From: Bacteroidaceae bacterium
Lineage (GTDB): Bacteria; Bacteroidota; Bacteroidia; Bacteroidales; Bacteroidaceae
Assembly (NCBI GenBank): GCA_017469925.1
Contig: JAFUFK010000003.1
Span: 13,281-77,280 of the forward strand
Direction of reading: 5' to 3'
Length of the DNA stretch: 64,000 nt
Below are positions 369 to 62,760 of the stretch, one piece after another. The notes under the pieces were generated by a model that was not told where the DNA came from, made no database searches, and saw nothing but the letters and a program-made list of their open reading frames with translations. Made by a program: the position numbers and the translations under genes. Every line of letters starts with the position of its first letter. The first letter of the stretch is position 1.

Positions 369-3300
369 ATGAAACGGACCTTTTTTGCACTTCTCCTACT
401 GATTGGGCTTTCAGGCAGGGCCCAGTTGGTCGATACGCGACTCGGCACCGCTAACAGCAACACCCCATCGGCCGGACGCTTCGGCAAGGGCAGCGAGGAG
501 CACGGCCACACACTGCCCGCCGTGCTCGAGCCTCACGGCATGACGTTTTGGACCCCACAGACACGCGACACGGAACAGAAGTGCGTCTGCCCCTATTACT
601 ATCAAGATACGCGCCTGCAGGGCTTCCGCGCCTCGCATTGGATTGTAGGCGGTTGCACGCAGGACTACGGTTCCTTCACCCTGATGCCTTTGGCAAACAA
701 GAGTAAACTGACTGCCGAGGGACGCGCCCAGGCCTTCAGCCACGCAGAGGAGGTGGCCACCCCGGCCTACTACAGCGTCAGCCTACCTTATGTACGATGC
801 GAGATGACGGGGCGCAGCCGTTCGGCCATCTTCCGATTCACCTTCAAAAGCAAGAAAAGGGCCTATCTCGTCTTTGAAACCAATAGCGACGAAGGCGAGG
901 GCACCATCGAATACGACGAACAACAAGCACGGGTTCGTGCCACAAATCCCGTCCACCGCATCTATCAGGGTTGGGGGGAACGGGCTGGCATGACGGGCTA
1001 TGCCGTATTGCAACTCCGTTCTGAGGATGTCAGCGAGTGGGGCAAAGAAGGGAATCTGCTGTGGATTCGCCTCAGCAGGCCCGATGTCCTTGCCAAGGTT
1101 GCCACCAGTTTCACGGGCATTGAAGGAGCAGAGCGAAACCTCCGTTCCGAGATTCCACACTGGGACTTCGACAAGACTCGCCACGAGTTGGAACAGATAT
1201 GGCAACGGCAGTTGGGAAAAATCAAGACCCCTCTCACCCCTCACCCCTCACCTCTCACCTCTCACCTCTCACCTCTCACCTTCTACTCCGCCCTCTACCA
1301 CGCCTCCTTCCTGCCCCATGTCCTGAGCGACGTCGATGGGCGCTATCCGGGCTTCGCAGGCACGGGCATCAGGCAGATGCCCCAAGGGCGCGACTACTAC
1401 GACGACTTCTCGGCCTGGGACACCTATCGCGCCCAGCACCCCCTGCTCAACATCATCAGTCCGCGGGAGAGTGCCGACATGATGCAGTCGCTCGTCCTGA
1501 AGTACCAACAGGGCGGCTGGCTGCCCATCTTCCCCTGCTGGAACAACTACACCGCCGCCATGATTGGCGACCACTGTGCGGCCATCTTGGCCGAGGCCTA
1601 TCGGAAGGGGATTCGAGACTTCGACTACACTGCGGCCTATGAAGGGATGAGAAAGAATGCCTTCGAAACGCCCCATTCCATCGAGGAATATCGCAACGGC
1701 ATGGGGCGCCGCGCGCTCGATTCCTACCTCCGGTATGGCTACATCCCCCTGGAGGACAGCGTGCCCGATGCCTTCCACCAGCGCGAACAGACGAGCCGCA
1801 CGATGGAGTATGCCTACGACGACTATGCCGTAGCCCAGATGGCCCGCCTGCTCGGCCATGCCGACGACTACCGCCAACTGACCCTCCGCAGCCGCTCGTG
1901 GGCCCGTGTCATCAATCCCCAGACTGGGTGGTGCGACGGACGGTGGGCGACGATGTCGCCAGTGCAAAGTGCAGAGTGGGCCACAACCACGAACTCTGAA
2001 CTGAGCACCTTGAACTGGCGGGGCGAAACCCCGCCTCGCCCTGCCTTCCTTACCGAGGGCTGGCCCTGCCACTACACTTGGTACGTGCCACACGACGTCG
2101 AGGGACTCATCCGGGCGATGGGTGGCCGCGAGCGCTTCGTCGGCCGTCTCGACAGCCTTTTCTCCGAGGGCCTCTATTGGCACGGCAACGAACCCTGCCA
2201 CCAGGTGGCCTACCTCTTCGACTACGCAGGCGAGCCCTGGCGCACGCAACGCTGGGTGCGCCACATCCTGCGCACCGAGTACAACGACTCGCCGGGTGGA
2301 CTCTCCGGCAACGACGACGCCGGACAGATGTCGGCCTGGTACCTGTTCTCCTGCCTCGGCTTCTACCCCGTATGTCCCGTATCGGGCGAATACGCCATCG
2401 GCAGCCCCGTCTTCCCCGAGGTCGAGATTCCGTTAGAGGGAGGCAAGGTGTTCCGCATCATTGCCCATAATGCATCAGAGGAGAACATCTACATCCAGTC
2501 GGCCCGGATGAATAATCTGCCGATGGAATCGCCATTTTTTACGCATGACGACCTCCTCTCGGGCGCAACACTGGAGTTCGAAATGGGCCCCCAGCCCTCC
2601 ACATGGGGCTGTACGGACCAGCCCACCTTCAACCCCATGGACTTCGGGGCCGTAGGCGACGGACTCCACGACGACACCGAGGCCGTACAGGCCTGTATCC
2701 GTGCCGCCAGAGGCAGGGTGGTTTTCCCCGCTGGCAAGACATTCCTTGTCGGTCCGCTCGAACTGAAAGCGGGCATCGACTACCACCTGGAAGCCAGCAG
2801 CCGACTGCTGGCCAATCCCGATGAAAGCATCTACCACCTGAGTGCCTTCGGCGACAACCGCGGCGAGGGCATGTTATGGCTCTGGGCCAACGGTGCCGAC
2901 GACATCACCCTCTCGGGCCAAGGCATCATCGACGGCAACGGCATCGCCTTCATGGGTCCCGAACTGGAGGATTCCTACGTGCTGAAGGAACTCAAGGACC
3001 CCCGGTTCGACCCGCGTCCCCACGTGCTCACCTTCTTCGGCTGTCGCAACCTCGAGATTTCCGGCATCACCGTACAGAACGGTGCCTACTGGACCATCCA
3101 CCTCGTCGGCTGCGACGGTGCCCGCATCCACGACATGAGCCTCCTCAACCAACTGAAGATTCGCAACGGCGACGGCATCGACCTCGACCACACCTCGAAC
3201 GTGGACATCTGGAACTGCCTCATCGAGAGCGGCGACGACTGCATCTGCCTCAAGAACCGCCGCGAATACAGCCCCGGCTACCTCTCCTCTGTCCATTATC

Positions 3301-3962: not shown

Positions 3963-4022
3963 TATACCGATTCTTATTTATCGTGTGCGCGCCCACGCGT
4001 ACGCTCGTACATGCGCGTTGGA

Positions 4023-4103
4023 AACCAGTGACTGGTTAAGCCGAAACCAGTCACTGGTTTCGCCGAAAGGAGTGACTGGTTAAAATTTAACCAGTGACTG
4101 GTT
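4023..4103. repeat. four copies of the 15-bp palindrome AACCAGT(G/C)ACTGGTT at exact 22-bp spacing
   Basis: Palindrome centres lie at 4030, 4052, 4074 and 4096. Copy 3 has a degenerate left half (AAGGAGT). Copies 1 and 2 are mutually complementary over 17 nt (GAAACCAGTGACTGGTT / AACCAGTCACTGGTTTC). The array sits between the convergent stops at 3962 and 4161. Confidence 0.9.
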
Positions 4104-5962: not shown

Positions 5963-6340
5963 ATGAAAAAGTTATTTTTAACTCTCTCACTTTTCGCCGC
6001 CATGATGGCCATGTCCACACAACTGTTCGCTGATGATCCCGCGTTTGAGAACATCATTAAACTGACCCTAACAGACATCCAACCAGTTAAGGATTATCCT
6101 CGCAGTCCCGTTCGTCCTCTTCAGATTGGGCAGAATGGACACGAACTTCATTTCTTCACGGTTGGCGACTACGAAGTCAACATCTACAGCATCAGCGATG
6201 AGGGAATAGGCAATATGGAATACACTGAACTTGTCCCCACCTCCTGCTCCAGCATCCTTCTGCCTTCCGACCTCACAGGCATCTATGCCATAGAAGTCGT
6301 TCGCGGAAGCCTGCACTTCTGGGGGGAAATTGAATTATAA
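5963..6340 (+). CDS. small secreted DUF3244-like protein
   Basis: ORF 5789-6340 trimmed to ATG 5963 (signal peptide MKKLFLTLSLFAAMMAMSTQLFA). About 125 aa with a C-terminal beta-sandwich-like tail (GIYAIEVVRGSLHFWGEIEL). The DUF3244 assignment is from memory of the family. Confidence 0.45.
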   Translation: MKKLFLTLSLFAAMMAMSTQLFADDPAFENIIKLTLTDIQPVKDYPRSPVRPLQIGQNGHELHFFTVGDYEVNIYSISDEGIGNMEYTELVPTSCSSILLPSDLTGIYAIEVVRGSLHFWGEIEL

Positions 6341-9800: not shown

Positions 9801-12752
9801 TCTCAAATAACAGACCCTATGGGATTAACTACGAGTTATGGTTATAACGTATATGGGAACGTCTTTTCAGAAAAGAATTATCTGGGATATTCCACACATC
9901 ACACATACGACAATATGTTGCGTGAGACACTCTCATATAGCCCAATCTCAAGAGTAGAAAACATATACGAACAAGGGGATTATGGAAACGCCGCATATAA
10001 AGTTACTACTACAGCCAAGGGAAAACCTACTACGATATCCTATTACGATAGTTTCGAACGAAAAATTGCTGAGGCGGAGAAACGTTTTGACGGGCGATTT
10101 CTTTATATTGATTATTCTTACTTAAAGAACGGACAATTAGGTTTTGTTTCATTTCCACATATTTCGCCATCAGTCTCGAATGAAGGCACATATAGTACCT
10201 ATGATTTTTATAATAGAAAAATTAGCGAAGTCGATACTCAAGGAAAGACCTCAACATGGGAATACGAACCTTTCGTAGTTAGCTCTAATGTTGAAGGGGT
10301 TGCCCAAACTACAACTTATGCCCATCGTAATGTCATAAATACAATTCAAAATCTTGCTGGGACAGTTGATTTTTCTGTAGATGCGTTTGGAAGGACAACA
10401 CAAATTGTGAAAGGGACAAATACCACCACTATTAACTATGACGATTTTGGGCGCACACTCCAGACCAATGACATGTTAGGGATAACGAGATCTTATGTCT
10501 ATGACAGCAATGGTCATCTTCAATCTGTAACACAAGGAAGTAGCACCAAATATACCGAATATGACAGATTCGGACGATTGCTTTCCAATACATTTCATGA
10601 TAGCGGAACGACAGACACACAAACTTATTATACATACAATGCGAAAAATCAACTTGTTTGTGATTCAAGTAGTAATCATGTATACAAATATACTTATGAT
10701 GCTTATGGCCGTCTCAAACAGGAAAACCGACGGGTAATAGCCAATAATACCGAGAGTATGACGTGCTCTTACACGTACAATTCGCTCAACCAACTGACCC
10801 AGAAAAACGTTGTACTGGGATCGACAGGTATAAATCTTACAGAAAAATATACTTATTCCAACGGATGGTGTCGAAGCATTTCTGTCAATGATTCTTTAGT
10901 ATGGAAATTGGTAAAAGAAGATTATAATGGTCATGTCCAGAATACATCTAATCATTTGGATAATATTTCATGGAGTTACGATATCTATGGCAATTTGTTA
11001 TCCAAATCCGTTTCTGGCGTTCACTCCTTAATACAATCTTATGATTACGACCTTACAACAGGGAATCTTATTCAAGACGATAACTCTTCCTATACTTATG
11101 ACGACCTTAATCGTCTGATTAAGTGGAACAATAATAATTATTCTTATGACGGAAACAATAATCTGACTTCCATCATTCCCCTGGGGACGCTTTCTTATAA
11201 CAATTATAAGTTGAGTCATGCAAATACGAACAATCCACTCAGTGTTACCCCTTATGAATGCAGTTTCGCTTATCTCAAATCCATAGAGCGCCCATATGGA
11301 ATCGAAGAAAACGGGAAAAGAGTAATATTTGCCTATAATGGTAACAAGCAGAGAGTCTGGATGAAAAGCTACGAATATCAGGCGCTGGGACATCCGACAT
11401 TATTGGGCACTCGCTACTACATCAGCGAAAATTATGAAATCGACCAGAAAAATGGCGAACACAAGCGCTACTATTATTATGTTGGCGGCACCCCATATGA
11501 TGCACCAGCAGTTGTACTGATAGAAGATTCCGTCCCTGTTATATATCAAATATATAGAGATAGAATCGGCAGCATTGTTATGTATGCCGGCAGGAATAGC
11601 AGCACCAGTCTTTCCTATAATCCGTGGGGTGTAAGATTCCCTACATCTAATGCACACTACTCTTCACTGATTGATGACGACGCTCTCTATTGCAAGTTTA
11701 TAAGGACATATACAGGTCATGAGGAAATTCCCTACTTTGGCCTGCTCAATGCAAATGCTCGTATCTACAATCCCCATATAGGTCGTTTCATGAGCCCCGA
11801 CCCGCTCCTGACCATAAATGGGGCCCCTCAAGACTTCAACCCCTATGTCTATGCGCGGAACAATCCACTATCCTATGTGGATCAGGATGGAGAATTCCCA
11901 TGGGTCATAATTGCAGCTGTTGCAGGAGGAACTATGAATGTCTTAACCAATTTAGATGATATAAAAGGATTTAAAGAAGGGGCTATATACTTTATAATAG
12001 GGGCAACCGATGCTGTACTTACAGCCACGGGGCATACTCTTACTGGTGCAATCCTTTTCGGAAGTGCAAACAATCTTATATCACAACTTATCAATAAGGA
12101 TTGGGATTTGAAAAGGATTAATTGTATGCATATCTTGAGCGAGGGATTTATTGCAGGCTATTCTTCATACATGGGATCATATGTAAGTGCCCTTATATCC
12201 TCTCCTATTAACAAACTCACTTCTCATATCTCCAATTCACTACTAAGAGAATCAGCAAGTAAGGCTTTGGGTAATTATATTTCTAGTTTTGCTTCTCAAA
12301 CAGGATTTAATTTACTTAAAGGATATGATTTTTCAACATCTATCAAAAATGCTTCTACATCTTCTCTCGTTGATTTGGCCATGGGGGCAATAGATGGATT
12401 TGCATCTGAAAAAATAAGGCTAAATCTGCAAAAAAAATATGATTCCATTAATTCTAACACACAAGATATTATCAATAGAGCCATGGATAGTCCCAATTAC
12501 CCTTATGGGAGTGGAAATATTAATGTTTTTGTAGGAAAAGATGCGGATGGAATTATCAGAAATGTATGTATGAGCAAATATAACACTATCAACAATTTTA
12601 AAAATTCATTAGAATATAGTATTGTAGCAACAAATTGTTCTGCCCGACAAGGAGATTATTTAAAGCAAGCCCTTATCAATCTATGGGGTCTTGGAAAAAA
12701 TGGTGGCACATTAAAATATAATAAGCGAAATACTTTTTCACCCAGATGGTAA
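6816..12752 (+). CDS. RHS-repeat polymorphic toxin (SpvB/TcB-like N-terminus, FG-GAP/VCBS repeats, YD-repeat shell, RHS core, variable C-terminal domain)
   Basis: Lipobox-like signal (FLLTVLPSC). SpvB-type start: TGAATYTIPINSLPSPNEFSPSISLTYNSQMGNGLAGFGWNLSGLSSI. Six DxDxDG-type FG-GAP motifs (DVDNNGQSEL, DIDRDGYDEI, DINGDGMSDL, DVNADGLPDL, DLDGDGKMDL, DFDGDGVIEI). Many YD repeats (YTYMPNGRL, YGYNVYGN, YDAYGRL...). RHS core end: YTGHEE..ARIYNPHIGRFMSPDP...YARNNPLSYVDQDGE. Confidence 0.85.
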   Translation: MKKIIIFLLTVLPSCNSLLAESVIGKVSGGLNVSETGAATYTIPINSLPSPNEFSPSISLTYNSQMGNGLAGFGWNLSGLSSITIGPRSTYFDGTAEGMYEGDDNAYFLDGMRLLLVSGENGKQGATYRTESEQYSVIRIDSVLAETPAIFTIKKKDGSTYRYGSSTGRARYTDNASYEWALDYAEDCLGNYIVYTYEQYGLTLCPSSITYGRNKNNSSSPIYTISFSYGSRSDEIPVHRFEASIPFAMKLTGISCMVQGNYYRTYHLTYDYNVYSHLTSVREDGLNSSSYPATSFVWENLPEYNLQETAPGIPAPPGQAFSDIHFFAADVDNNGQSELIGLYDTNGTGNQLRTAKIWKQNPSTGSFYIDESHTTASGIAVGNVYMPCRQGGSLAHVSNRQDNSILLPYYSNLGGDGRVVFDCIKEEVTFPYFMQSASDKICHTIADIDRDGYDEIILVERKENHHATSTRPVSIIRLNLSNSSLTSSNLTMDLNGDPTRIASADINGDGMSDLLVCTTEGFYIYWNNAGSFSDTNRYYGTGFGECDVLEIGDVNADGLPDLVINKHKSELTTPNTWLCAVNSGTTTAPFSFYDIEILENLGANNYGNNEAYCLLHDLDGDGKMDLVAGMAFHLNNHFNSGQVVLLKSNGATFSYLESATFATESLYPSFDKIVQGDFDGDGVIEIMYYGGAFHTPSSTAAWRRLKPAGYSAASNRITKITDGLGQIQKIDYGLLTHEDVYEQDSTPSFPLLGFRAAMSVAKRVEAIASNDTLWTSFKYGDALYHWQGKGFLGFKKKSITSSDGTKAMSECGINMDYYVLYPHAEKIYASNDCLWKENISTTIFNPVGSKSYFVYNQNQREDDRVNGYFDISTHSYGAYGNIINEEHTDEKFESASEYMYWESNNPNIYIKGLPSVIETTKSVDSSQEETERIVYTRENNTGLPLSCKTYRNGTLVETTLYSYNTCGQLVTLTTINGNSTDSLTTTYTYMPNGRLSQITDPMGLTTSYGYNVYGNVFSEKNYLGYSTHHTYDNMLRETLSYSPISRVENIYEQGDYGNAAYKVTTTAKGKPTTISYYDSFERKIAEAEKRFDGRFLYIDYSYLKNGQLGFVSFPHISPSVSNEGTYSTYDFYNRKISEVDTQGKTSTWEYEPFVVSSNVEGVAQTTTYAHRNVINTIQNLAGTVDFSVDAFGRTTQIVKGTNTTTINYDDFGRTLQTNDMLGITRSYVYDSNGHLQSVTQGSSTKYTEYDRFGRLLSNTFHDSGTTDTQTYYTYNAKNQLVCDSSSNHVYKYTYDAYGRLKQENRRVIANNTESMTCSYTYNSLNQLTQKNVVLGSTGINLTEKYTYSNGWCRSISVNDSLVWKLVKEDYNGHVQNTSNHLDNISWSYDIYGNLLSKSVSGVHSLIQSYDYDLTTGNLIQDDNSSYTYDDLNRLIKWNNNNYSYDGNNNLTSIIPLGTLSYNNYKLSHANTNNPLSVTPYECSFAYLKSIERPYGIEENGKRVIFAYNGNKQRVWMKSYEYQALGHPTLLGTRYYISENYEIDQKNGEHKRYYYYVGGTPYDAPAVVLIEDSVPVIYQIYRDRIGSIVMYAGRNSSTSLSYNPWGVRFPTSNAHYSSLIDDDALYCKFIRTYTGHEEIPYFGLLNANARIYNPHIGRFMSPDPLLTINGAPQDFNPYVYARNNPLSYVDQDGEFPWVIIAAVAGGTMNVLTNLDDIKGFKEGAIYFIIGATDAVLTATGHTLTGAILFGSANNLISQLINKDWDLKRINCMHILSEGFIAGYSSYMGSYVSALISSPINKLTSHISNSLLRESASKALGNYISSFASQTGFNLLKGYDFSTSIKNASTSSLVDLAMGAIDGFASEKIRLNLQKKYDSINSNTQDIINRAMDSPNYPYGSGNINVFVGKDADGIIRNVCMSKYNTINNFKNSLEYSIVATNCSARQGDYLKQALINLWGLGKNGGTLKYNKRNTFSPRW

Positions 12753-12779
12753 ATACTTGCCTATATCAGAGAATAGCAT

Positions 12780-12787
12780 TATCTTTG
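12780..12787 (+). promoter_or_regulatory. possible internal -7 promoter box (TATCTTTG) for the immunity gene
   Basis: Matches the TAnnTTTG consensus, 24 nt upstream of ATG 12811 and just after the RHS stop. Confidence 0.35.
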
Positions 12788-12810
12788 CCATAAAAATAAA
12801 AAAATAGAAT

Positions 12811-13347
12811 ATGTTCAATTTTATAAAAGAGAAAAAGCGAGCCAGAGAAAGAAAACGCATGAACATAAAGATTGGCGACATCTTTTGCATAAAAATGGAC
12901 GATGGGAGTCTGCGTTTCATGCAATACGTAGCGGACGACAAAACTGAAATGTCTCCTGTAATAAGAATCTTTAAGAAGGTCTATCCTTCAGATTATCAAT
13001 TTCAGACAGAAGAAATTGTTGCAGATGAAGTGGACTTTTACTCGATGACTTGGTGCTTGTCGCATGGCATACAAGATGGTGATTGGCAAAGAGTGGGTTG
13101 GAGTAATAATGTGGGAGATACAGAGAACATAATGTTTCGCTTTTACCACGATGCTTTTAACTTTGTAAACAAGAAGAAATCTTACCAATGGTATGTATGG
13201 AAAATCAATCACGAGCGCATTGATATCGGAGAACTTACTGATGAATACAAAAAACGTGCTGATTGGGGATTAATATTCTCCACGGTACAACTTTTGGAAA
13301 AGATCAGACATGGTGATTTTACTACAATACAAACCAAAATTGAGTAA
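12811..13347 (+). CDS. candidate cognate immunity protein of the RHS toxin
   Basis: It lies directly downstream of the toxin on the same strand and has no signal peptide. The same AT-rich composition continues through it. The segment MNIKIGDIFCIKMDDGSLRFMQYV resembles Imm-type immunity proteins. An alternative start is ATG 12859. Confidence 0.45.
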   Translation: MFNFIKEKKRARERKRMNIKIGDIFCIKMDDGSLRFMQYVADDKTEMSPVIRIFKKVYPSDYQFQTEEIVADEVDFYSMTWCLSHGIQDGDWQRVGWSNNVGDTENIMFRFYHDAFNFVNKKKSYQWYVWKINHERIDIGELTDEYKKRADWGLIFSTVQLLEKIRHGDFTTIQTKIE

Positions 13348-15212: not shown

Positions 15213-15213
15213 A

Positions 15214-15248
15214 AGTTAAAGGTTCAAAGTTTATGGTTCAAAGTTTTT
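15214..15248. repeat. 7-nt-periodic tandem repeat at the rfbD/rfbB junction
   Basis: AGTTAAA GGTTCAA AGTTTAT GGTTCAA AGTTTTT. The rfbD stop (15238-15240) lies inside the array, which ends 2 nt from the rfbB start codon (15212). Confidence 0.85.
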
Positions 15249-17133: not shown

Positions 17134-17168
17134 AATTGTCAATTATCAATTGTCAATTATTAATTATT
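17134..17168. repeat. 7-nt-periodic tandem repeat (AATTRTY x5) directly upstream of the tRNA-Ser promoter box
   Basis: AATTGTC AATTATC AATTGTC AATTATT AATTATT, ending 4 nt before TACCTTTG. Confidence 0.85.
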
Positions 17169-17171
17169 TAT

Positions 17172-17179
17172 TACCTTTG
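17172..17179 (+). promoter_or_regulatory. -7 promoter box (TACCTTTG) for tRNA-Ser
   Basis: Matches the TAnnTTTG consensus, 16 nt upstream of the mature tRNA 5' end. Confidence 0.6.
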
Positions 17180-17194
17180 CACTCGAATTCGCAA

Positions 17195-17281
17195 GGAGAG
17201 ATGCCAGAGTGGTCGAATGGACCGCACTCGAAATGCGGCGTACGGGCGACTGTACCCTGGGTTCGAATCCCAGTCTCTCCG
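17195..17281 (+). tRNA. tRNA-Ser (anticodon CGA), class II with long variable arm
   Basis: Acceptor GGAGAGA/TCTCTCC. Anticodon stem CCGCA/TGCGG with loop CTCGAAA. Long variable arm. T arm CTGGG-TTCGAAT-CCCAG. No encoded CCA. Confidence 0.85.
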
Positions 17282-17288
17282 CTTCAGA

Positions 17289-21492: not shown

Positions 21493-22650
21493 TTATAAAT
21501 GAGAGGTGAGAGGATTAGAAGTGAATAACATTTTCGATTCGATGGGGTTGGCATAGATGCCGAGAAAGATTTCAAAGAGAGTCTCGACGTCGGACGACTC
21601 CTCGTACTGGCAGAGACGACGCATACGGTGGAGGAAGGCCTGCTTCTGCTCCTCGGTGTATTCGTGGCTGTAGGCCTCGTTGCCATAGAGCAGGTCGTGG
21701 GCAATGTAGTTATTGGGCGTCAGGCGATAGGCAGTGCAGATACGCTCATCGAGAAGGGTGGCCACATGGCGGTGGAAATCGCCTGACGTGCATGACTCCC
21801 ACTGGGTCAGTTCGTCGCGAGAGATAGGGCGACAGAACTCCATGTGCACACGTCCCTTCGGTTGCACGATGCCTGTCAGGATACTATTGAGGTCCTCGCC
21901 GGGCTTCTTTGTGTAGGGACCGCGACGGCGCTCGTAAAGTTCGAGCGTCTTCAGTATATCGCACGACTCCCATTCGTAGGAGACGGATACGGGCACGAGG
22001 TGGAGTTGGGCCAAAGCCTCAACCTTGTCGCCCGAATAGCTCATACCAAACATCTTAATGATGCCTTGGTCGGTGCGGTCGATACCATCCTTCGTACGGC
22101 CGTTGCGCTGAGCTATCCACACCGAATGGCGGTCGTCGGTAATCACCTTCCGCATGTACTCCGACAGATGGCACGAGGCACGATAGAACTCGCGTACGTT
22201 AGTGCCGGGGCGCTCGACGCGGAACATGCGATTCGACTTGCCTATATCTACCACCAATTGTCCCTGCATCAGGTTGGCCCCAAAGGTTATTTCCGTAGTC
22301 TCGAACCCGTTACTGACCAAGAGGTATTGCATGAGCGACGAGTCGAGCATGATGTCGCGGTGGTTCGACACGTACATATAACTGCCCGAAGGTGACAGGT
22401 GTTCGAGTCCGCCAAAGGTCAGTTCCGTAATGCTGCGACGGATAACCTGGCGGTTGACCTCCATCATCACCGTATGCTGAAAGTCGCGGATGTTATCGTA
22501 ACTGCGTACCCGCTGGCGCACGGTATTGAGGTCGTCGTCAGGATAGACGTAAGAGGCCAGCAGGGGGAAGGTGGCATTGTCGGCAATACGATGCATAGCT
22601 TCCGATATCTCAGAATCGTAATAGGGGCGTATATCGTCAAACTTTTCCAT
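21493..22650 (-). CDS. glycerolipid-type acyltransferase (HX4D family)
   Basis: ORF 21493-22689 trimmed to the ATG at 22650 (MEKFDDIRPYY). HX4D motif in VSNHRDIMLDSS. The C-terminus ...NPLTSHL runs into a GTGAGAG-type repeat. Confidence 0.6.
   Translation of the reverse strand: MEKFDDIRPYYDSEISEAMHRIADNATFPLLASYVYPDDDLNTVRQRVRSYDNIRDFQHTVMMEVNRQVIRRSITELTFGGLEHLSPSGSYMYVSNHRDIMLDSSLMQYLLVSNGFETTEITFGANLMQGQLVVDIGKSNRMFRVERPGTNVREFYRASCHLSEYMRKVITDDRHSVWIAQRNGRTKDGIDRTDQGIIKMFGMSYSGDKVEALAQLHLVPVSVSYEWESCDILKTLELYERRRGPYTKKPGEDLNSILTGIVQPKGRVHMEFCRPISRDELTQWESCTSGDFHRHVATLLDERICTAYRLTPNNYIAHDLLYGNEAYSHEYTEEQKQAFLHRMRRLCQYEESSDVETLFEIFLGIYANPIESKMLFTSNPLTSHL
21499..21526. repeat. 7-nt-periodic repeat (ATGAGAG GTGAGAG GATTAGA AGTGAAT) at the acyltransferase/ACP junction
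   Basis: It has the same GTGAGAG unit as the tracts at 1229-1281 (reverse complement) and 27009-27064. It covers the last codons of the acyltransferase gene, just after its stop at 21493-21495. The ACP start (21489) is 9 nt beyond the array. Confidence 0.6.
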
Positions 22651-25653: not shown

Positions 25654-28600
25654 ATCTTCTCCATAAACTTACTGCGCACCTGTTGGGCTAATGCTAATGA
25701 CGACATGTCCTTGAAAACGTCATAACTAATACGCTTACCAACTTCTATTTCAATATTCCCCTGACGCAACATGAAATCGTACTTCGGGAGTACCCACCCC
25801 ACTCCGTGCAAATAGACTGGCAAGACATCAATCTCAAGTTGCTGGGCCAACTTGAAAGCCCCCTGATGGAAACGATGCACCCGAAGATCGTTTGACCGAG
25901 TGCCCTCAGGAAATATCATGACGGAATATCCCCTACGAGCCAAATCGCGTATGCGTTCAGCATTGCGGTCGAAGCCGTCAGAGATGGGATAGTACTCGGC
26001 ATACTTTATGAACTTACGATAGAACCAATTGTTCCAGACCCAATCGTTCGTCAACAATACGATTTTGGGTGAAAGCATCAGGATACACATCAAGTCGAGG
26101 TGCGACTGATGGTTAGCCACAATGACGGATGGACGTGAGAAATCCTCATCGTTATCGTTCGTCACACCAACCCGGACACCAGGCACGTGGTGAATCGTAA
26201 AGCGTGAGATCCAACTAATCAGCCGATGATAGCGCAGGCGCTTCTGCTTCGTCACCGGACCTACATGGAAATAAATCCAGGCAAAGGGGATAAGGAAGAA
26301 GGTGGTCCCAATGATGAAAAAGAGTATGGAAAAGAGCGAATAAACTATACGCTTAAGGGTAAGTGGAACCTCGCGCCGCTGGCCATCCTTTTCGGTCATC
26401 CATCGGAAAATAACGGGAGGCAAGTAGCAGGCCATCAATACAACTACTCCCATGCCCACCATCGCCACCATTGCCAGAGAGCGCAAGGCCGGATGCTTGG
26501 CCAATATCAGTGCACCTATGCCAATGAACATAATGATGCCCGAAAGGGCTACGCTGTTCTTATAGCTCGCAAGCGTTTTCTTCCCCGTCCGATACTCTTG
26601 GAGCAAGCCTTCAGTAATGAAGATAGTATAGTCATCACCCTGACCAAATATGAATGTGGCCAAGATGATGTTGACAATATTGAACTGCATACCTAAGAGA
26701 TTCATTAGGCCCAGAATCCACAACCACCCAACAGTTAACGGGAGGAACGAAAGCAAAGTGAGTTCGAAACTGCAGAACGAAAACCACAAGAAAGCAAACA
26801 CCACAAATCCGCAAACAAAACCGATGTAGTTAAAATTCTTGGATAGCAGGCTGACCAAGCTATTGCTTACATCTTCGGTAGCAAACAGGAAACTATCGTC
26901 TTGCAACTGGGGTCGGAACTTTTCCGCAATAGCAGAGGCTTCTCCTCGAGGCACCTGCACAAAATTAACTATCGATACCGTCCCCGTTATAGAATCGGTC
27001 ATGACGAAGTGAGAGGTGAGGGACGAAAGATGAGAGGTGAGGGACGAAAGATGAGAGGTGAGATGGAAGAATGGATTGAAAGCAGTACTTGAGAAACCCA
27101 GTTGAGTAGCCTGCTTTTGCAATGTTTCTATGGCCTCGGGGTGCTGCTGCCATAGCTCAATCCAACGCTGAGCACGCTGTTCCTGGGCAGCACATGAAGG
27201 CAGAATACTCGACAATCCCGAAATCTGCTGGACTAGAGGATTCGAGGTCAGTAAGGCCACCAGACGCTCATTATTCTCCAAAGCCTCATCCAACGTCTGC
27301 CCGTGACTCACCGCAAAGAGCGTTTCCGTAGTGTCATTGGCCTTAATACTGGTTGAGAGCATGCGCATGTCGGCTCGTTGCGAAGGAGTCATATAATTGA
27401 TGTGTCGCATGTCAGTATCGAACGAAGTTCCCAAACTAAAATAGCCCAATACCAAAGTCGCCAACACTACAAAGGCAAATACCCACTTACGATGACGATT
27501 AAAGAAGGGGAGACGTACATGGAGATAAACAGAATGTCCCCCCTCCCCCGCCGTCCTTGCAGGAGCCAATACTGGTAAAGCTACGAGTACAAACAAGATA
27601 GTGCCCACAAGCATTAAGGAACCAAACAACCCCAAGTCTTTCATGGCATCGGCGTCGAGGAAAACCAAACAAAGGAAGGCACTGACTGTCGTAATATTGC
27701 CAATTAACAGCGGCGGTACCATCTCACGCAGAGCTTCGCGTTTATCAGTCTCATGCTTAATGTGGTCGAGGTAATGTAGGGGATAGTTGACGGCAATGCC
27801 GATAATCACCGACCCAATGCCTATAACAATAATGGAGATAGAGGCTTTGAAAATTGCAAGACAACCGATAGCAAACAACCAACCGAAGGTGATGGAAAGG
27901 GCTATCCAAACGAGGTCGTTCCAACGCCGGAAACTATAGATAAGCATAGCAAATATCAGCACAACAGCAACAATCACGGCCAAGAGACTATCGTACTTAA
28001 TCTGACGGGCATTAGTAACGGCTATCAATGGAGCACCCACTGCCGAAACATCCACCCCGTGATATATGGCCTCTGTCGAATCTATCGCAGTTTGCAGAAT
28101 GTCAGCCAATCGCGCATTTTCCTTCGACTCACTCATACTATATGGGGAGGAAAGGAATGCAAGCCCCACACGACCATCCTTATCAAAGACATAACCATCA
28201 CGCAACTGGTAGTGGTCGCTCAACTGCATGCTACGTAATGATGCCATGACGGAGCCGCAAAGATGCAGAGGATCGTAGGGAAGGGACTGAGAAACAATGC
28301 CACTTGTAGGTAACATCAATAGGGCACAGTTTTCTTCCATACATTTCCCGACAAATGCCGTGTCGGAAAGCAGCGATTCAGCCCTTTCATAGTCGGATTC
28401 GGACATCAATAGAGGATAGGTCTGCCAGACTTCACTCAAGACATCATACATCTGAGATTCATCAACCTGTATCTGTAAATCCCGAACTATGCCATCAACA
28501 TCAACCAGTCGAAGATTATCCCCAAAGGCATCCATGGCCTCCTCTAACATTTGGTAGTCAAACCCACCCTCGTCACGAAAGACCACGACAATGCGATCCT

Positions 28601-30968: not shown

Positions 30969-31325
30969 TTATTTCAGGATTAAGAAGCAGCCACACACTA
31001 TCAGGCACACACCCAACCAGCGATAGACTGGTACAGCCTCATGGAAGAATATGATGGCAGCAAACATCCCCAACACATAACTGATGCTTATCAGGGGATA
31101 AGCCATACTGAAGGGGAACACCTTAAGAATGTACATCCACAATAGGGAAGCCGCACCATAGCACAAGCCACAAACCGCAAACTGCCAATTGAGGAACACA
31201 CTCTTCCAAAACACACCCGACCAGGCAAAGGTTTCCATTCGTTGCAAGGCAAACTTCAGCAACACTTGACCGCTCGTAAGCAGAAAACATTGCAGGAGAG
31301 CAAGGGGGAGGAGTCTTAATATCAT
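30969..31325 (-). CDS. small 4-TM membrane protein (EamA/ArnE/GtrA-like)
   Basis: 118 aa with four hydrophobic helices. The family is not resolved by eye. Confidence 0.45.
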   Translation of the reverse strand: MILRLLPLALLQCFLLTSGQVLLKFALQRMETFAWSGVFWKSVFLNWQFAVCGLCYGAASLLWMYILKVFPFSMAYPLISISYVLGMFAAIIFFHEAVPVYRWLGVCLIVCGCFLILK

Positions 31326-31329
31326 AAAA

Positions 31330-31357
31330 GGTTAGGGGTTAAAGGTTAGAGGTTATG
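31330..31357. repeat. 7-nt-periodic tandem repeat (GGTTAGG GGTTAAA GGTTAGA GGTTATG) at the KS / 4-TM gene junction
   Basis: The KS stop (31346-31348) lies inside the array, which ends 4 nt from the start codon at 31325. Confidence 0.85.
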
Positions 31358-38707: not shown

Positions 38708-39934
38708 TTATAGTTTCCGGAAAACAAGGGCTGAGTTGGTGCCGCCGAAGCCGAAGGAGTTGGAGAGGACGAGGCGGAGGTCGATGTCCTCGATGGTGTG
38801 GTCGGCCAGACGCAGGGGGGCGGCGTACTCGTCGGGGTGTTCGAGGTTGATGTTGGGAGCCACGAAGCGGTCGCGCATCATCAGCAGGCAATAGACGGCC
38901 TCGCTGGCTCCGGCCATCCAGCACTCGTGGCCCGTCATCGACTTGGTGCTGCTGATCCAGGCCTTCTTGCCATGGAACAGGCGGTCGAGGGCCATGGCCT
39001 CGTACATGTCGCCCTGGTGGGTGCTGGTGGCGTGGGCGTTGATGTAGTCGATGTCGTCGGGCGCGACGCCGGCGTCCTGCATGGCACGTTGCATGGCCGT
39101 GAGGCTGCCCTCGTCGCTGGGTTGCGAGATGCCGCCGCCGTTCGACGAGAATCCGTAGCCCACGACCTCGCCCAGTATGGCGGCTCCGCGCCGGATGGCG
39201 TGGTCGTAGTCCTCCAGGACGAGGGCTGCCGCGCCTCCGCTGGGGATGAGTCCGTCGCGGTCGCGGTCGAAGGGGCGGCTGGCCCGCGTGGGCTCGTCCA
39301 TGCGTTTCGAGAAGGCGCCCAGGGCGTCGAACGTGGCCATCGAGTAGTAGTTGGTCTCCTGCGCACCGCCGCACAGTACCATCTCCTGCATGCCCTGCTT
39401 TATGAGCATGTAGCCCAGCCCGATGGAGTGGCTGCCGCTGGCGCAGGCCGCACTGACTGTGAAGTTGACGCCGCGCAGGTGGAAGATGGTGCTCAGGTTC
39501 ATGTTCACCGTCGAGTTCATGCACTGGAAGATGAGTCCCGAGCCGAGCAGGGCCGAGTCGTGTTTCTCGTCCATGATATGGGCGGCCTCGATGACGGGCC
39601 GGGCCGACGAGTCGTTGCCGAAGATGGCACCCACCTCGTTGGCTCGCAGATAGTCGTCGTCGATGCCGGCCATGGCGAAGGCCTCGCGCGAGGCCATGTA
39701 GGCATACTCGGCCTCCTCCGACAGTCCCACGCGCAGGCGGCGGTCGATGACGCCCTTCAGTTGGGGCCGTTCGACGATGCCCGTCAGGGCACTCTGGTAG
39801 CCGTACTCGAGCCGAGCCTCCTCGAGCCCAATGCCGCTACGCCCCTGGCGCAGCGACTCGGCCACCTCTTCCGTACTTTTTCCCAGGCACGACCATACGC
39901 CTATGCCCGTTACCACTACTCTATTGCTTGCCAT
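38708..39934 (-). CDS. beta-ketoacyl-ACP synthase I/II family
   Basis: ORF 38708-39967 trimmed to ATG 39934 (MASNRVVVTGIGV). It carries SAACASGSHSIG (Cys), NAHATSTHQGD, SFGFGGTNS. Confidence 0.85.
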   Translation of the reverse strand: MASNRVVVTGIGVWSCLGKSTEEVAESLRQGRSGIGLEEARLEYGYQSALTGIVERPQLKGVIDRRLRVGLSEEAEYAYMASREAFAMAGIDDDYLRANEVGAIFGNDSSARPVIEAAHIMDEKHDSALLGSGLIFQCMNSTVNMNLSTIFHLRGVNFTVSAACASGSHSIGLGYMLIKQGMQEMVLCGGAQETNYYSMATFDALGAFSKRMDEPTRASRPFDRDRDGLIPSGGAAALVLEDYDHAIRRGAAILGEVVGYGFSSNGGGISQPSDEGSLTAMQRAMQDAGVAPDDIDYINAHATSTHQGDMYEAMALDRLFHGKKAWISSTKSMTGHECWMAGASEAVYCLLMMRDRFVAPNINLEHPDEYAAPLRLADHTIEDIDLRLVLSNSFGFGGTNSALVFRKL

Positions 39935-39936
39935 AT

Positions 39937-39971
39937 AACTCTTAACTCTGAACTTTGCACTTTGCACTTAC
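39937..39971. repeat. 7-nt-periodic tandem repeat (AACTCTT AACTCTG AACTTTG CACTTTG CACTTAC) at the fabG/KAS junction
   Basis: The fabG stop (39968-39970) lies inside the array, which ends 2 nt from the KAS start codon (39934). Confidence 0.85.
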
Positions 39972-40699
39972 GTATATAGTCCGCCGTTGATGCTGATGAC
40001 CTCGCCCGTGATGTACGAAGCCGCGTCGGACAGCAGGAAGCCCACCAGTTCGGCCACCTCCTCGGGACGTCCGAAACGCTTCATGGGCACCAGTTCGCGC
40101 AACTCCTCCTGGGGCAGGTCGGCGGTCATGTCGGTCTCGATGAAACCGGGTGCAACGGCGTTGACCGTCACCCCGCGCACGGCCGTCTCCTGGGCCAGGG
40201 CCTTGGTGGCTCCGACGAGGGCGGCCTTGGCCGCGCTGTAGTTGGTCTGGCCGGGCAGTCCCTTGAGGCCCGAGAGCGAGGCCATGTTGACGATGCGCCC
40301 GCCGTGGCGGCGTCGCATCATCTGGGGCAGCAGTCGCTTCGTGACGTAGTAGAATCCGTTGAGCGACGTGTCGAGCACCGCGTGCCAGTCGGCCGAGGGC
40401 ATCATGAACATCATACCGTCGCGCCGTATGCCGGCGTTGTTCACGAGGTAGGCTATGTAGTCGTCGGGGTGCCGCTCCTGCCAGCCGTCGAGGGCCGTCT
40501 CTACCTGGGCCTCGTCGCCGACGTCGAAGGGCAAGAGTTCGGCCCGTCCGCCCATGGCCCGAATCTGTTCGGCGACCTCCTCGGCAGCCGCCCGATTGCG
40601 CTGGAAATTGACGATGACAGGCAGCCCCATCTGGGCCAGTTTCAGGCACACTGCGCGCCCGAGCCCGCGCGAACCACCCGTCACTAATGCGTATTTCAT
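39968..40699 (-). CDS. fabG: 3-oxoacyl-ACP reductase (SDR), first gene of the long cluster
   Basis: ORF 39968-40777 trimmed to ATG 40699 (MKYALVTGGSRGLGRAV). It carries NNAGI and YSAAKAAL (YxxxK). Confidence 0.85.
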   Translation of the reverse strand: MKYALVTGGSRGLGRAVCLKLAQMGLPVIVNFQRNRAAAEEVAEQIRAMGGRAELLPFDVGDEAQVETALDGWQERHPDDYIAYLVNNAGIRRDGMMFMMPSADWHAVLDTSLNGFYYVTKRLLPQMMRRRHGGRIVNMASLSGLKGLPGQTNYSAAKAALVGATKALAQETAVRGVTVNAVAPGFIETDMTADLPQEELRELVPMKRFGRPEEVAELVGFLLSDAASYITGEVISINGGLYT

Positions 40700-40739
40700 C
40701 TCAGTCCTTGTCGTGTTTATATTATAATATAAAAGCGCG

Positions 40740-40747
40740 CAAAGGTA
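40740..40747 (-). promoter_or_regulatory. -7 promoter box (TACCTTTG on the minus strand) for the 25-gene cluster
   Basis: Matches the TAnnTTTG consensus, 41 nt upstream of the fabG start. No other box was seen inside the cluster junctions. Confidence 0.5.
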
Positions 40748-40837
40748 CGAAAAAAACGGGACTCCCCCAAATCTCAACCGTTAATAATTACTACGTGCGG
40801 CAGCGCTTGTAAACATTTTTCCGTCCTCCCCGGGGGC

Positions 40838-40960
40838 CGTCCGGAACCTGCCGCCGAAAGTAATGTTAACCTATCGGCCGAGATAATATTAACTTCCGGC
40901 CATCGGTTAACATAACCTGGGGGCGTAGGTTAACATTACTTTCAGGCGTAAGCTTCCGAC
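40838..40960. repeat. GTTAAC-rich ~122-bp imperfect palindromic element, copy A
   Basis: Outer arms GAAAGTAATGTTAACCT (40856-40872) and AGGTTAACATTACTTTC (40927-40943), extended by CGGAA...TTCCG. About 90 percent identical to copy B at 59301-59422, in the same orientation. Confidence 0.85.
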
Positions 40961-41159
40961 CCCCAGCGAGATGCCCCTCCTTCGTGTTGTAAACCAGTGC
41001 GTTAACCTCTACAGCAAAAGATGGGGCAGACACCCTCGTGCCTGCCCCATCCGGAAGCGTCTCGTTGTAAAAGTTTTTCACATTACCCTGCCACGACCTT
41101 GAACTGACGTTCGAGCTCGTTCACGCTCGGGCTAATCCGAACAAGTTGGGATTCGCCAC

Positions 41160-59300: not shown

Positions 59301-59422
59301 GTCCGAAACCTGCCGCTGGAAGTTATGTTAACCTATCGGCCGAGATAATGTTAACTTCCGGCCATCGGTAAACTTAACCTGGGGGCGTAGGTTAACATAA
59401 CTTCCGGCGGCCCCTTCGGAGA
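59301..59422. repeat. GTTAAC-rich ~122-bp imperfect palindromic element, copy B
   Basis: Outer arms are GGAAGTTATGTTAACCT (59318-59334) and AGGTTAACATAACTTCC (59389-59405). Relative to copy A, two arm positions changed on both arms so that pairing is kept. Confidence 0.85.
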
Positions 59423-62726: not shown

Positions 62727-62730
62727 TTAT

Positions 62731-62760
62731 TGTGAATTATGAATTGTGAATTGTGAATTG
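62731..62760. repeat. 7-nt-periodic tandem repeat (TGTGAAT TATGAAT TGTGAAT TGTGAAT) at the dapB/lepB junction
   Basis: The dapB stop (62737-62739) lies inside the array, which ends 4 nt from the lepB start codon (62726). Confidence 0.85.

What the first reader, a model, noticed from the sequence alone, without database searches (positions are those of the whole stretch)
39937..39971. Recurrent 7-nt-periodic tandem repeats filling the spacers between co-directional genes
Five same-strand gene junctions are built from heptamer repeats, each with its own unit:
- 15214-15248: AGTTWWW / GGTTCAA.
- 21499-21526: ATGAGAG GTGAGAG...
- 31330-31357: GGTTARR.
- 39937-39971: AACTCTK / CACTTWS.
- 62731-62760: TRTGAAT.

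At four of the five junctions the upstream gene's stop codon lies inside the array. At 21499-21526 the stop (21493-21495) lies just past the array edge, and the array covers the last codons of the acyltransferase gene. At all five, the array ends 2-9 nt before the next start codon. Each array therefore supplies both the C-terminal tail of the upstream protein (for example dapB ...FQFTIHNS) and the translation-initiation region of the downstream gene.

A sixth array sits on the tRNA-Ser promoter, and two more lie inside CDSs. The common property is the 7-nt period, not the sequence. That points to a shared generating mechanism or a selected spacing function. I do not know of a described function for this pattern.
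Basis: seen in the sequence. Interest (0 to 1): 0.65.

Follow-up and report, generated by a model that had tools for sequence, protein, structure and literature searches.

The report
Seven-base tandem repeats between operon genes
A gut Prevotella-like bacterium carries short tandem arrays of 7-base units in the small gaps between genes; they are real and far beyond chance, but they belong to a repeat class already described in other bacteria and look like tolerated copying-slippage products, not a new regulatory device.

Summary
In the 64-kb window, strong tandem periodicity occurs only at periods 7, 14 and 21, apart from one 22-nt array. Four co-directional junctions (rmlD>rmlB, KS-CLF>EamA, FabG>KAS, dapB>lepB) are built almost entirely from heptamer arrays. 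The fifth claimed junction (21499-21526) is only two copies inside a CDS end. The arrays at the tRNA-Ser promoter and inside two CDSs are also real.

The organism is a high-GC gut or rumen Bacteroidales (Prevotellaceae-like) MAG. In 2.6 Mb from about 160 related genomes and metagenome contigs, period 7 is the commonest tandem period: 206 arrays with 98 different units, mostly non-coding. Array density differs strongly between genomes.

Orthologous junctions show turnover. The nearest relative has the same dapB-lepB unit expanded from 4.6 to about 10 copies. Most relatives have none, and some have other units or period 9. No copy-number change was seen among four samples.

This matches the published class of long simple sequence repeats, where heptanucleotides are the most abundant unit and polymerase slippage is the proposed cause. 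Similar start-codon-proximal heptamers are described in Beggiatoaceae, cyanobacteria and some Bacteroidetes.

Best reading: slippage-born arrays kept where tolerated, which passively form the protein tail and the downstream leader. A selected translational role is not excluded.

The parts
39936..39969 (-). Focal array. Sense strand reads GTGCAAA GTGCAAA GTTCAGA GTTAAGA GTTAT. It fills the 33-nt FabG>KAS spacer (39935-39967) inside the aryl-polyene-like operon.
   Evidence: TRF one search reports two period-7 rows. Sequence. Gene calls. Identical in all four samples, and without gaps in a strain about 3% divergent.
62729..62760 (-). CAATTCA-type array, x4.6. It holds the last 5 codons and the stop of dapB, plus the 10-nt spacer before lepB.
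   Evidence: The unit matches the ancestral dapB end CAATTC-TAA. In L004 the same unit is expanded to about 10 copies.
31327..31355 (-). AACCTYT-type array, x4.1 (period 14 x2.1). It holds the KS-CLF stop and the 20-nt spacer before the EamA-family gene.
   Evidence: In relatives this junction is mostly an ATGA overlap, so the array is an insertion.
15213..15246 (-). AAACTTTGAACCWT array, period 14 made of two alternating heptamers, x2.4. It holds the rmlD stop and the 25-nt spacer before rmlB.
17134..17173 (+). AATTGTC/AATTATC/AATTATT array, about x5. It covers the -33 region and abuts the TAnnTTTG -7 box (17172-17179) of tRNA-Ser (17195-17282).
1230..1281 (+). CCTCTCA x7.4 inside the GH92/GH28 gene (369-3962). 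It encodes ...TPLTPHPSPLTSHLSPLT..., an 8-residue loop insertion relative to a solved GH92 structure.
   Evidence: alignment to 7zgm_A.
27003..27062 (-). Period-21 array (three heptamers, CCTCACC TCTCATC TTTCGTC) x3 inside the MMPL-acyltransferase gene. It encodes the repeated peptide LTSHLSS.
21500..21513 (-). CCTCTCA x2 in the last codons (..NPLTSHL*) of the 385-aa gene. This is a weak member; the spacer to the ACP gene is only 3 nt.
   Evidence: Not reported by TRF at score 30.

Best explanation
These are heptanucleotide long simple sequence repeats. They are short tandem arrays born by slipped-strand mispairing during replication, seeded on whatever local sequence was there. The lineage is a set of gut and rumen Prevotellaceae-like Bacteroidales in which slippage of 7-11-nt units is unusually productive.

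The arrays survive where extra bases are tolerated:
- in the few non-coding bases between operon genes;
- in the dispensable last codons of the upstream gene;
- in promoter-upstream DNA;
- inside genes, only as in-frame (21-nt) additions in loops.

Because these junctions are so short, an array that lands there becomes the whole spacer. It therefore passively provides the new stop codon, a short C-terminal tail, and the A/T-rich, unstructured leader of the next cistron. That leader suits the Shine-Dalgarno-independent initiation typical of Bacteroidota.

What is shown: the arrays exist, period 7 dominates, and the arrays are lineage-specific, turn over, and sit inside operons. What is inferred: the slippage origin and the passive, tolerated status.
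For: - Period 7/14/21 is the only strong tandem signal in the window.
- In 2.6 Mb of relatives, period 7 is the commonest period: 206 arrays with 98 distinct units. About 70% are non-coding, although non-coding DNA is about 10% of the sequence.
- Array density is genome-specific. 60 of 116 loci have none and 19 have 4 or more (p = 2e-24). Density correlates with that of 8-11-nt arrays (rho 0.39) but not with GC.
- Local seeding: the dapB array unit CAATTCA matches the ancestral ...CAA TTC TAA end.
- Turnover: the nearest species has the same unit at 10.4 vs 4.6 copies. Other relatives have none, other units, or period 9.
- The KS-CLF>EamA junction is an ATGA overlap in most relatives.
- At FabG>KAS, about 20 of 65 relatives carry period-7 arrays of varied units, while others have 0-20 nt or an overlap.
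- In-CDS arrays exist only as in-frame peptide repeats or a loop insertion.
- None of the four junction arrays contains a TAnnTTTG promoter box, while every operon start in the window has one.
- Published precedent: heptanucleotides are the most abundant long SSR class, with a polymerase-slippage hypothesis (PMC4679880 introduction; PMC4692102 discussion).
Against: - Slippage was not observed directly. There was no copy-number difference among four metagenome samples or in a strain about 3% divergent. These were contigs, which hide rare variants.
- A purely neutral model does not obviously predict three findings. The sense strand is A-rich and C-poor (G-rich 42 vs C-rich 17, p = 0.0015). Co-directional spacers are preferred about 1.9-fold (p = 0.028). 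Arrays are more often than expected within 15 nt of starts (30 vs 22.9 +/- 3.1).
- The FabG>KAS junction carries arrays in about a third of relatives, far above the 7% background. This suggests either a hotspot or selection.
- Why the period is 7, and not 5 or 6, is unexplained.
- My gene calls in the relatives are crude (ATG-start ORFs), and the loci are orthologous neighbourhoods, so array counts are not fully independent.
Confidence: 0.62

Rival explanations
1. The arrays are selected cis-elements acting in the mRNA. They would be repeated docking sites in the leader for a single-strand RNA binder such as ribosomal protein S1, a cold-shock-domain protein or another factor. These sites would set initiation or re-initiation of the downstream cistron in an organism that does not use Shine-Dalgarno pairing. 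The 7-nt register would reflect the footprint of the binder.
For: - Arrays end 0-3 nt before start codons in the window.
- In relatives there is an excess of arrays within 15 nt of starts. The sense strand is A-rich and C-poor, and co-directional spacers are preferred.
- Arrays are predicted unpaired, and array-bearing leaders fold weakly, at -3.5 to -7 kcal/mol over 70 nt.
- Arrays recur at the FabG>KAS junction across many species with different units.
- The same idea was proposed for TAACTGA repeats (PMC4679880) and for Nostoc heptamers (bioRxiv 10.1101/2022.06.06.494920).
Against: - Units are extremely diverse (98 kinds), so no single sequence-specific binder fits.
- Three of the four window arrays are C-rich and lack G on the sense strand, opposite to the family-wide trend.
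- Most orthologous junctions work without any array or as overlaps.
- Fold z-scores do not differ from shuffles or from array-free junctions.
- The A-richness mirrors ordinary array-free leaders, which have A = 0.386.
- Arrays also occur in convergent spacers and inside CDSs.
Confidence: 0.2
2. The arrays are contingency (phase-variation) loci. Frequent gain or loss of units would switch or tune expression of neighbouring genes, as with the 7-bp promoter repeats of the Haemophilus influenzae hmw genes.
For: - Copy number differs between species at dapB-lepB.
- One array sits in a promoter (tRNA-Ser), and one junction is in rml (surface sugar) genes.
- The CCTCTCA x7.4 array is nearly perfect.
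Against: - Arrays are short (2-5 copies) and imperfect.
- The neighbouring genes are mostly housekeeping (dapB, lepB, tRNA, fatty-acyl enzymes).
- No length variants were seen in four samples or in a divergent strain.
- Junction arrays lie outside reading frames, so unit changes cannot frameshift the downstream gene.
Confidence: 0.06
3. The arrays are pieces of small mobile or REP/MITE-like elements whose arms are built of heptamer repeats. They would have been inserted at junctions, not grown in place.
For: - Relatives contain inverted pairs of arrays, sometimes flanking a 100-200-nt core: L082 12442-12518, L008 12771-12866, L128, L095, L126.
- The same CCTCTCA unit occurs at three sites in the window.
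- Identical arrays of 31 nt or more occur in many other contigs of the same metagenomes, shown by depth spikes and loose ends at the array edges.
Against: - The window's junction arrays have no inverted partner and no core.
- Their units match the local ancestral sequence, as at the dapB end.
- Units differ at nearly every site.
- No transposase or target duplication is evident.
Confidence: 0.08
4. The pattern is a chance pattern or an assembly artefact.
For: One claimed site (21499-21526) is only a two-copy match. Logan contigs break at some arrays.
Against: - Shuffles give 0.05 arrays where 4-5 are seen.
- Arrays are identical in independent assemblies of different samples.
- The same phenomenon appears in about 160 unrelated assemblies.
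Confidence: 0.01

Closest known systems
Long simple sequence repeats with 5-11-nt units, heptanucleotide class (Mrazek, Guo & Shah 2007, as summarised in PMC4679880 and PMC4692102)
   Same: Tandem arrays of 7-nt units that are longer than chance allows. Units whose length is not a multiple of 3 are mostly intergenic. Heptamers are the most abundant period, and the distribution among lineages is sporadic. Polymerase slippage is proposed as the origin.
   Different: The class was described mainly in Burkholderia, Xanthomonas, cyanobacteria and actinobacteria. I found no description for Prevotellaceae or gut Bacteroidales. Here the arrays are short (2-7 copies) and often make up an entire intercistronic spacer, including the stop codon.
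TAACTGA intergenic direct repeats of marine Beggiatoaceae, some cyanobacteria and five Bacteroidetes (MacGregor 2015, PMC4679880)
   Same: Heptamer direct repeats of 2-6 copies, within a few nt upstream of start codons, in forward orientation. They sit next to housekeeping genes and occasionally inside ORFs. [quoted passage not shown]
   Different: That system uses a single unit (TAACTGA) genome-wide. Here nearly every array has its own unit, and TAACTGA repeats are absent from the window and from all 168 loci.
Cyanobacterial STRR heptanucleotide families and Nostoc/Xanthomonas GGGNATC-type repeats (PMC4692102; bioRxiv 10.1101/2022.06.06.494920)
   Same: Period 7. Intergenic, including between operon genes such as pecE-pecF. 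Length varies between close relatives at conserved positions. Some form inverted pairs. Function is unresolved.
   Different: Those are a few defined, often G-rich (quadruplex-prone) unit families present in many copies. The arrays here are A/T-rich, heterogeneous and not quadruplex-forming.
Promoter heptamer repeats that tune expression (H. influenzae hmw1A/hmw2A 7-bp repeats, PMC8262952 and PMC12721329; V. cholerae ctxAB TTTTGAT repeats, bioRxiv 10.1101/2021.05.14.444153)
   Same: 7-nt tandem units upstream of a gene. Unit number can differ between strains.
   Different: Those are single virulence loci with many perfect copies, demonstrated regulators, and demonstrated copy-number effects. 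Here the arrays form a genome-wide scatter next to housekeeping genes, and no variation was seen within the population.

Membership tests
Heptanucleotide long simple sequence repeats (LSSR, 5-11-nt units) | Head-to-tail tandem copies of a 5-11-nt unit | tested here: met
   TRF reports period-7 and period-14 arrays at seven sites, plus one period-21 array.
Heptanucleotide long simple sequence repeats (LSSR, 5-11-nt units) | Arrays longer or more frequent than chance predicts for the genome's composition | tested here: met
   4-5 arrays observed against 0.05 expected from local shuffles. The 14-mer CCTCTCACCTCTCA gives 11 matches against 0.39 expected.
Heptanucleotide long simple sequence repeats (LSSR, 5-11-nt units) | Units not divisible by 3 are concentrated in non-coding DNA, and in-CDS arrays keep the reading frame | tested here: met
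   In relatives, 50 of 71 period-7 arrays are mostly non-coding, although about 10% of the DNA is non-coding. In-CDS arrays form 7-residue peptide repeats or a loop insertion.
Heptanucleotide long simple sequence repeats (LSSR, 5-11-nt units) | Period 7 is the most abundant unit length | tested here: met
   There are 206 period-7 arrays, against 62 (period 8), 153 (period 9, mostly coding), 48 (period 10) and 55 (period 11).
Heptanucleotide long simple sequence repeats (LSSR, 5-11-nt units) | Copy number changes by slippage | tested here: inconclusive
   Between species, copy number differs: 4.6 vs 10.4 copies of the same unit. Within the population, contigs show no change. Raw reads were not available.
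TAACTGA repeat system (MacGregor 2015) | The unit is TAACTGA | tested here: not met
   No TAACTGA dimer occurs in the window or in any of the 168 loci.
TAACTGA repeat system (MacGregor 2015) | Arrays lie within a few nt upstream of start codons, in forward orientation | tested here: met
   The four junction arrays end 0-3 nt before the ATG.
Cyanobacterial STRR | A few defined heptamer families dispersed in many copies in heterocystous cyanobacteria | tested here: not met
   There are 98 distinct units among 205 arrays. The host is a Bacteroidales.
Phase-variable contingency SSR | Length heterogeneity within a population that switches expression of surface or virulence genes | tested here: inconclusive
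   No indels were seen at arrays in four samples, but contigs drop rare variants. The neighbouring genes are mostly housekeeping.

The most novel reading that the evidence does not exclude
In gut and rumen Prevotellaceae, tandem arrays of 7-11-nt units are a selected, lineage-wide class of intercistronic leader. They would be A-rich, C-poor on the sense strand, and unable to fold. They would recruit the ribosome (via S1 or another single-strand binder) for Shine-Dalgarno-independent initiation or re-initiation, and unit number would tune the stoichiometry of operon products. On this reading, the persistence of arrays with shifting units at the FabG>KAS junction across many species reflects maintenance by selection.
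Probability: 0.15. Interest if true: 0.6.

Novelty: new member of a known kind. Interest (0 to 1): 0.3.

Why it matters
If these arrays are only tolerated slippage products, they matter in practical ways:
- They mark a genome-specific mutational propensity in an abundant gut clade.
- They create and move stop codons and C-terminal tails.
- They split formerly overlapping gene pairs.
- They break short-read assemblies.
- They can mislead gene-start and gene-end calling in MAGs.

If they prove to tune translation in organisms that lack Shine-Dalgarno initiation, they would give a simple, evolvable handle on operon stoichiometry in Prevotella and Bacteroides. They would also revive the long-open question of why 7 nt is the favoured unit in bacteria.

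Tried and rejected
- Rfam gathering scan of the window: only tRNA-Ser was found, with no RNA family at any array.
- Promoter idea: I looked for the Bacteroides-type TAnnTTTG box (consensus from my own knowledge). It precedes every operon start in the window but is absent from the four junction arrays, so the arrays are not internal promoters.
- Structure idea: leaders with arrays fold weakly, but no differently from shuffles or from array-free junctions.
- Stop codons in all three frames: this is true for the rmlD and KS-CLF arrays by eye. However, several arrays in relatives lack any stop triplet, and A/T-rich heptamers contain stops often by chance, so I did not pursue it.
- Strain-level copy-number variation: only four runs hold this genome, all as contigs, and no indels were seen.
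- The exact 1067-aa ORF look-up failed because the called start differs.
- TAACTGA membership was rejected.
- One literature query was malformed.
- No correlation was found between array density and GC.

Full report
**What is in the sequence**

TRF lists period-7, period-14 or period-21 arrays at 1230-1281, 15213-15246, 17134-17173, 27003-27062, 31327-31355, 39936-39969 (two rows) and 62729-62760. It also lists a weak one at 6201-6222. A simple run scan for s[i]=s[i+p] finds strong runs only at p=7, 14 and 21, plus one 22-nt array. Against local shuffles, the counts at run score 10 or more are 4, 5 and 4 for periods 7, 14 and 21, with 0.05-0.1 expected. Every other period between 4 and 22 has 0-2. 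The periodicity is real and specific.

**Organism and genes**

Pfam hits point to a Bacteroidales with an aryl-polyene/flexirubin-like cluster at about 18-40.7 kb. The hits include GH92/GH28, SusC/SusD, an OMP beta-barrel, DUF6377, ApeI/ApeP-like proteins, LolA and an MMPL-acyltransferase. Identical proteins lie on a 183-kb scaffold of a gut metagenome. I used that scaffold's gene calls to build the window's gene map. The closest genomes by dapB (89-90% identity) are roe-deer and rumen 'Bacteroidaceae/Prevotellaceae' MAGs. Window GC is about 55%.

**Anatomy of the junctions**

There are 13 co-directional spacers of 10-60 nt, and four are made of arrays:
- rmlD>rmlB: 25 nt.
- KS-CLF>EamA: 20 nt.
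- FabG>KAS: 33 nt.
- dapB>lepB: 10 nt.

The upstream stop codon is inside the array for rmlD, KS-CLF and dapB, and at its edge for FabG. The arrays end 0-3 nt before the next ATG.

The fifth claimed junction (21499-21526) is CCTCTCA x2 in the last codons of a 385-aa gene, with a 3-nt spacer. It is below the TRF threshold. It is still probably real, because the same 14-mer family occurs at 1230-1281 and 27010-27065. That gives 11 matches against 0.39 expected, all on the sense strand. Each site encodes a (P/S)LTSHLS-type peptide. The GH92 array is an 8-residue loop insertion relative to PDB 7zgm.

The tRNA-Ser array abuts a TAnnTTTG box. The same box sits 16-44 nt upstream of dapB, FabG, rmlA, SusC and other first genes, but in none of the junction arrays. 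The junction arrays are therefore intra-operonic. The consensus for this box is from my own knowledge of Bacteroides promoters.

**Relatives**

I fetched 80 dapB neighbourhoods from species genomes and 80 KAS neighbourhoods from metagenomes, 2.6 Mb in all.

Overall pattern:
- Period 7 is the most frequent tandem period: 206 arrays with 98 distinct canonical units among 205.
- About 70% of the period-7 arrays are non-coding, although only about 10% of the DNA is non-coding. Periods 9 and 12 are mostly coding.
- Density is about 85 arrays per Mb (94 per Mb in the window) and very uneven. 60 of 116 loci have none and 19 have four or more (chi-square p = 2e-24).
- Density correlates with that of 8-11-nt arrays (rho 0.39) but not with GC. 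That is the signature of a genome-level propensity.

Orthologous junctions:
- At dapB>lepB, dapB normally ends ...DLFxF-stop at residue 251. In the window and in the nearest species (L004) it reads on into the array.
- The array's unit CAATTCA resembles the ancestral ...CAA TTC TAA end. L004 has about 10 copies against 4.6 here.
- Other relatives have no array, different units, or period-9 arrays.
- At FabG>KAS, about 20 of 65 relatives carry period-7 arrays with varied units such as GTGAAAA, GAGTTAG, TAAATGA, TTCACTA and GAGTCAG. The rest have 0-20 nt or overlap.
- At KS-CLF>EamA, most relatives have an ATGA overlap, so the window's array is an insertion that separated two coupled genes.

**Tests bearing on function**

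I excluded the two junctions used to fetch the loci. Results:
- Arrays occur in 7.4% of co-directional spacers and 4.0% of divergent or convergent ones (odds ratio 1.9, p = 0.028).
- Density is 0.76 arrays per kb in co-directional spacers and 0.13-0.26 in the others.
- The sense strand is A-rich and C-poor (G-rich 42 vs C-rich 17, p = 0.0015).
- 30 arrays lie within 15 nt of a start, against 22.9 +/- 3.1 under random placement.

Other results:
- Ordinary array-free leaders are already A-rich, at A = 0.386.
- Three of the four window arrays are C-rich on the sense strand.
- Array-bearing leaders fold weakly (-3.5 to -7 kcal/mol over 70 nt) with the arrays unpaired. Their z-scores do not differ from shuffles or from array-free junctions.
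- All arrays are identical in independent assemblies from different samples.
- Logan contigs of the four runs that hold this genome show no indels at the arrays. This includes a co-occurring strain about 3% divergent across 39197-41000. Contigs cannot exclude rare variants.

These tests have limits. My gene calls in the relatives are crude, and the loci are orthologous neighbourhoods, so the p-values are indicative only.

**Comparison with the literature**

- Heptameric repeats were reported as over-represented among long SSRs in many bacterial genomes. Units not divisible by three were mostly intergenic, and polymerase slippage with a 7-nt contact length was suggested (Mrazek et al. 2007, as summarised in PMC4679880 and PMC4692102).
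- TAACTGA repeats lie within a few nt of start codons in Beggiatoaceae, cyanobacteria and five Bacteroidetes. S1, Csp or CsrA were proposed as binders (PMC4679880). That unit is absent here.
- Xanthomonas and Nostoc heptamers show conserved positions with variable length, and inverted pairs (PMC4692102).
- A Nostoc preprint reports effects of deleting heptamer repeats on reporter expression, but no mechanism (10.1101/2022.06.06.494920).
- I found no paper describing the pattern in Prevotellaceae.

**Verdict**

The pattern is a local instance of a described class, heptanucleotide long SSRs, in a clade where it seems not to have been reported.

The evidence favours a shared mutational origin (slippage) plus tolerance at junctions, gene ends and loops. 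The arrays passively provide tails, stops and leaders. A selected role in Shine-Dalgarno-independent initiation remains possible (about 0.15-0.2), given the strand bias and the FabG>KAS recurrence. A fixed 'spacing' function is contradicted by the copy-number differences and by the many array-free orthologous junctions.

Noticed in passing
window 4021-4103 and 59351-59408; L006 14143-14341; L034 13581-13743; L160 551-660: A second repeat class. These are tandem arrays with a 22-23-nt period whose units all differ, and many contain an internal palindrome (for example GAAACCAGTGACTGGTTAAGCC x3.8). Almost all are intergenic. There are 55 period-22 and 13 period-23 arrays in 2.6 Mb of relatives. 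No Rfam family matches in the window. Here too the period is shared, not the sequence.
   Followed up: partly
window 1230-1281, 21500-21513, 27010-27065: The same CCTCTCA-type unit occurs at three separate CDS sites, always on the sense strand. Each site encodes a (P/S)LTSHLS-like peptide. This gives 11 pattern matches against 0.39 expected, and hints that some units spread or arise repeatedly.
   Followed up: partly
window 17134-17173 and 62729-62760: Logan word depth jumps 100- to 500-fold at these arrays, and many contigs with unrelated flanks end at the array edges. Identical arrays of 31 nt or more therefore exist at many other places or in other organisms in the same gut metagenomes. Contigs also break at the period-21 array near 27033-27039.
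   Followed up: no
L082 12442-12518; L008 12771-12866 and 18690-18797; L056 242-308; L128, L095 and L126 at the FabG>KAS junction: In relatives, heptamer arrays often come as inverted pairs, with an array followed by its reverse complement. Some flank a 100-200-nt core. These could form long hairpins or REP/MITE-like elements. No such pair was seen at the window's junction arrays.
   Followed up: no
window 18031-40699 (- strand): A large aryl-polyene/flexirubin-like biosynthetic cluster. It includes ApeI- and ApeP-like proteins, LolA, an MMPL-acyltransferase fusion, KS/CLF, three ACPs, FabG, a methyltransferase and two amine-oxidase-family (phytoene-desaturase-like) genes. A TAnnTTTG box lies upstream of FabG at 40740-40747.
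   Followed up: partly
window 6816-13347: A 1978-aa SpvB/TcdB/RHS-repeat toxin-like gene is followed by an Imm26-family immunity gene with its own TAnnTTTG box (12780-12787). The region is low in GC (about 40%) compared with the window's 55%, which suggests a horizontally acquired polymorphic-toxin module.
   Followed up: no
window 31323-31348 vs L093, L100, L107, L145: KS-CLF and the EamA-family gene overlap as ATGA in most relatives. In the window they are separated by the array, and KS-CLF carries a C-terminal tail about 11 residues longer.
   Followed up: partly
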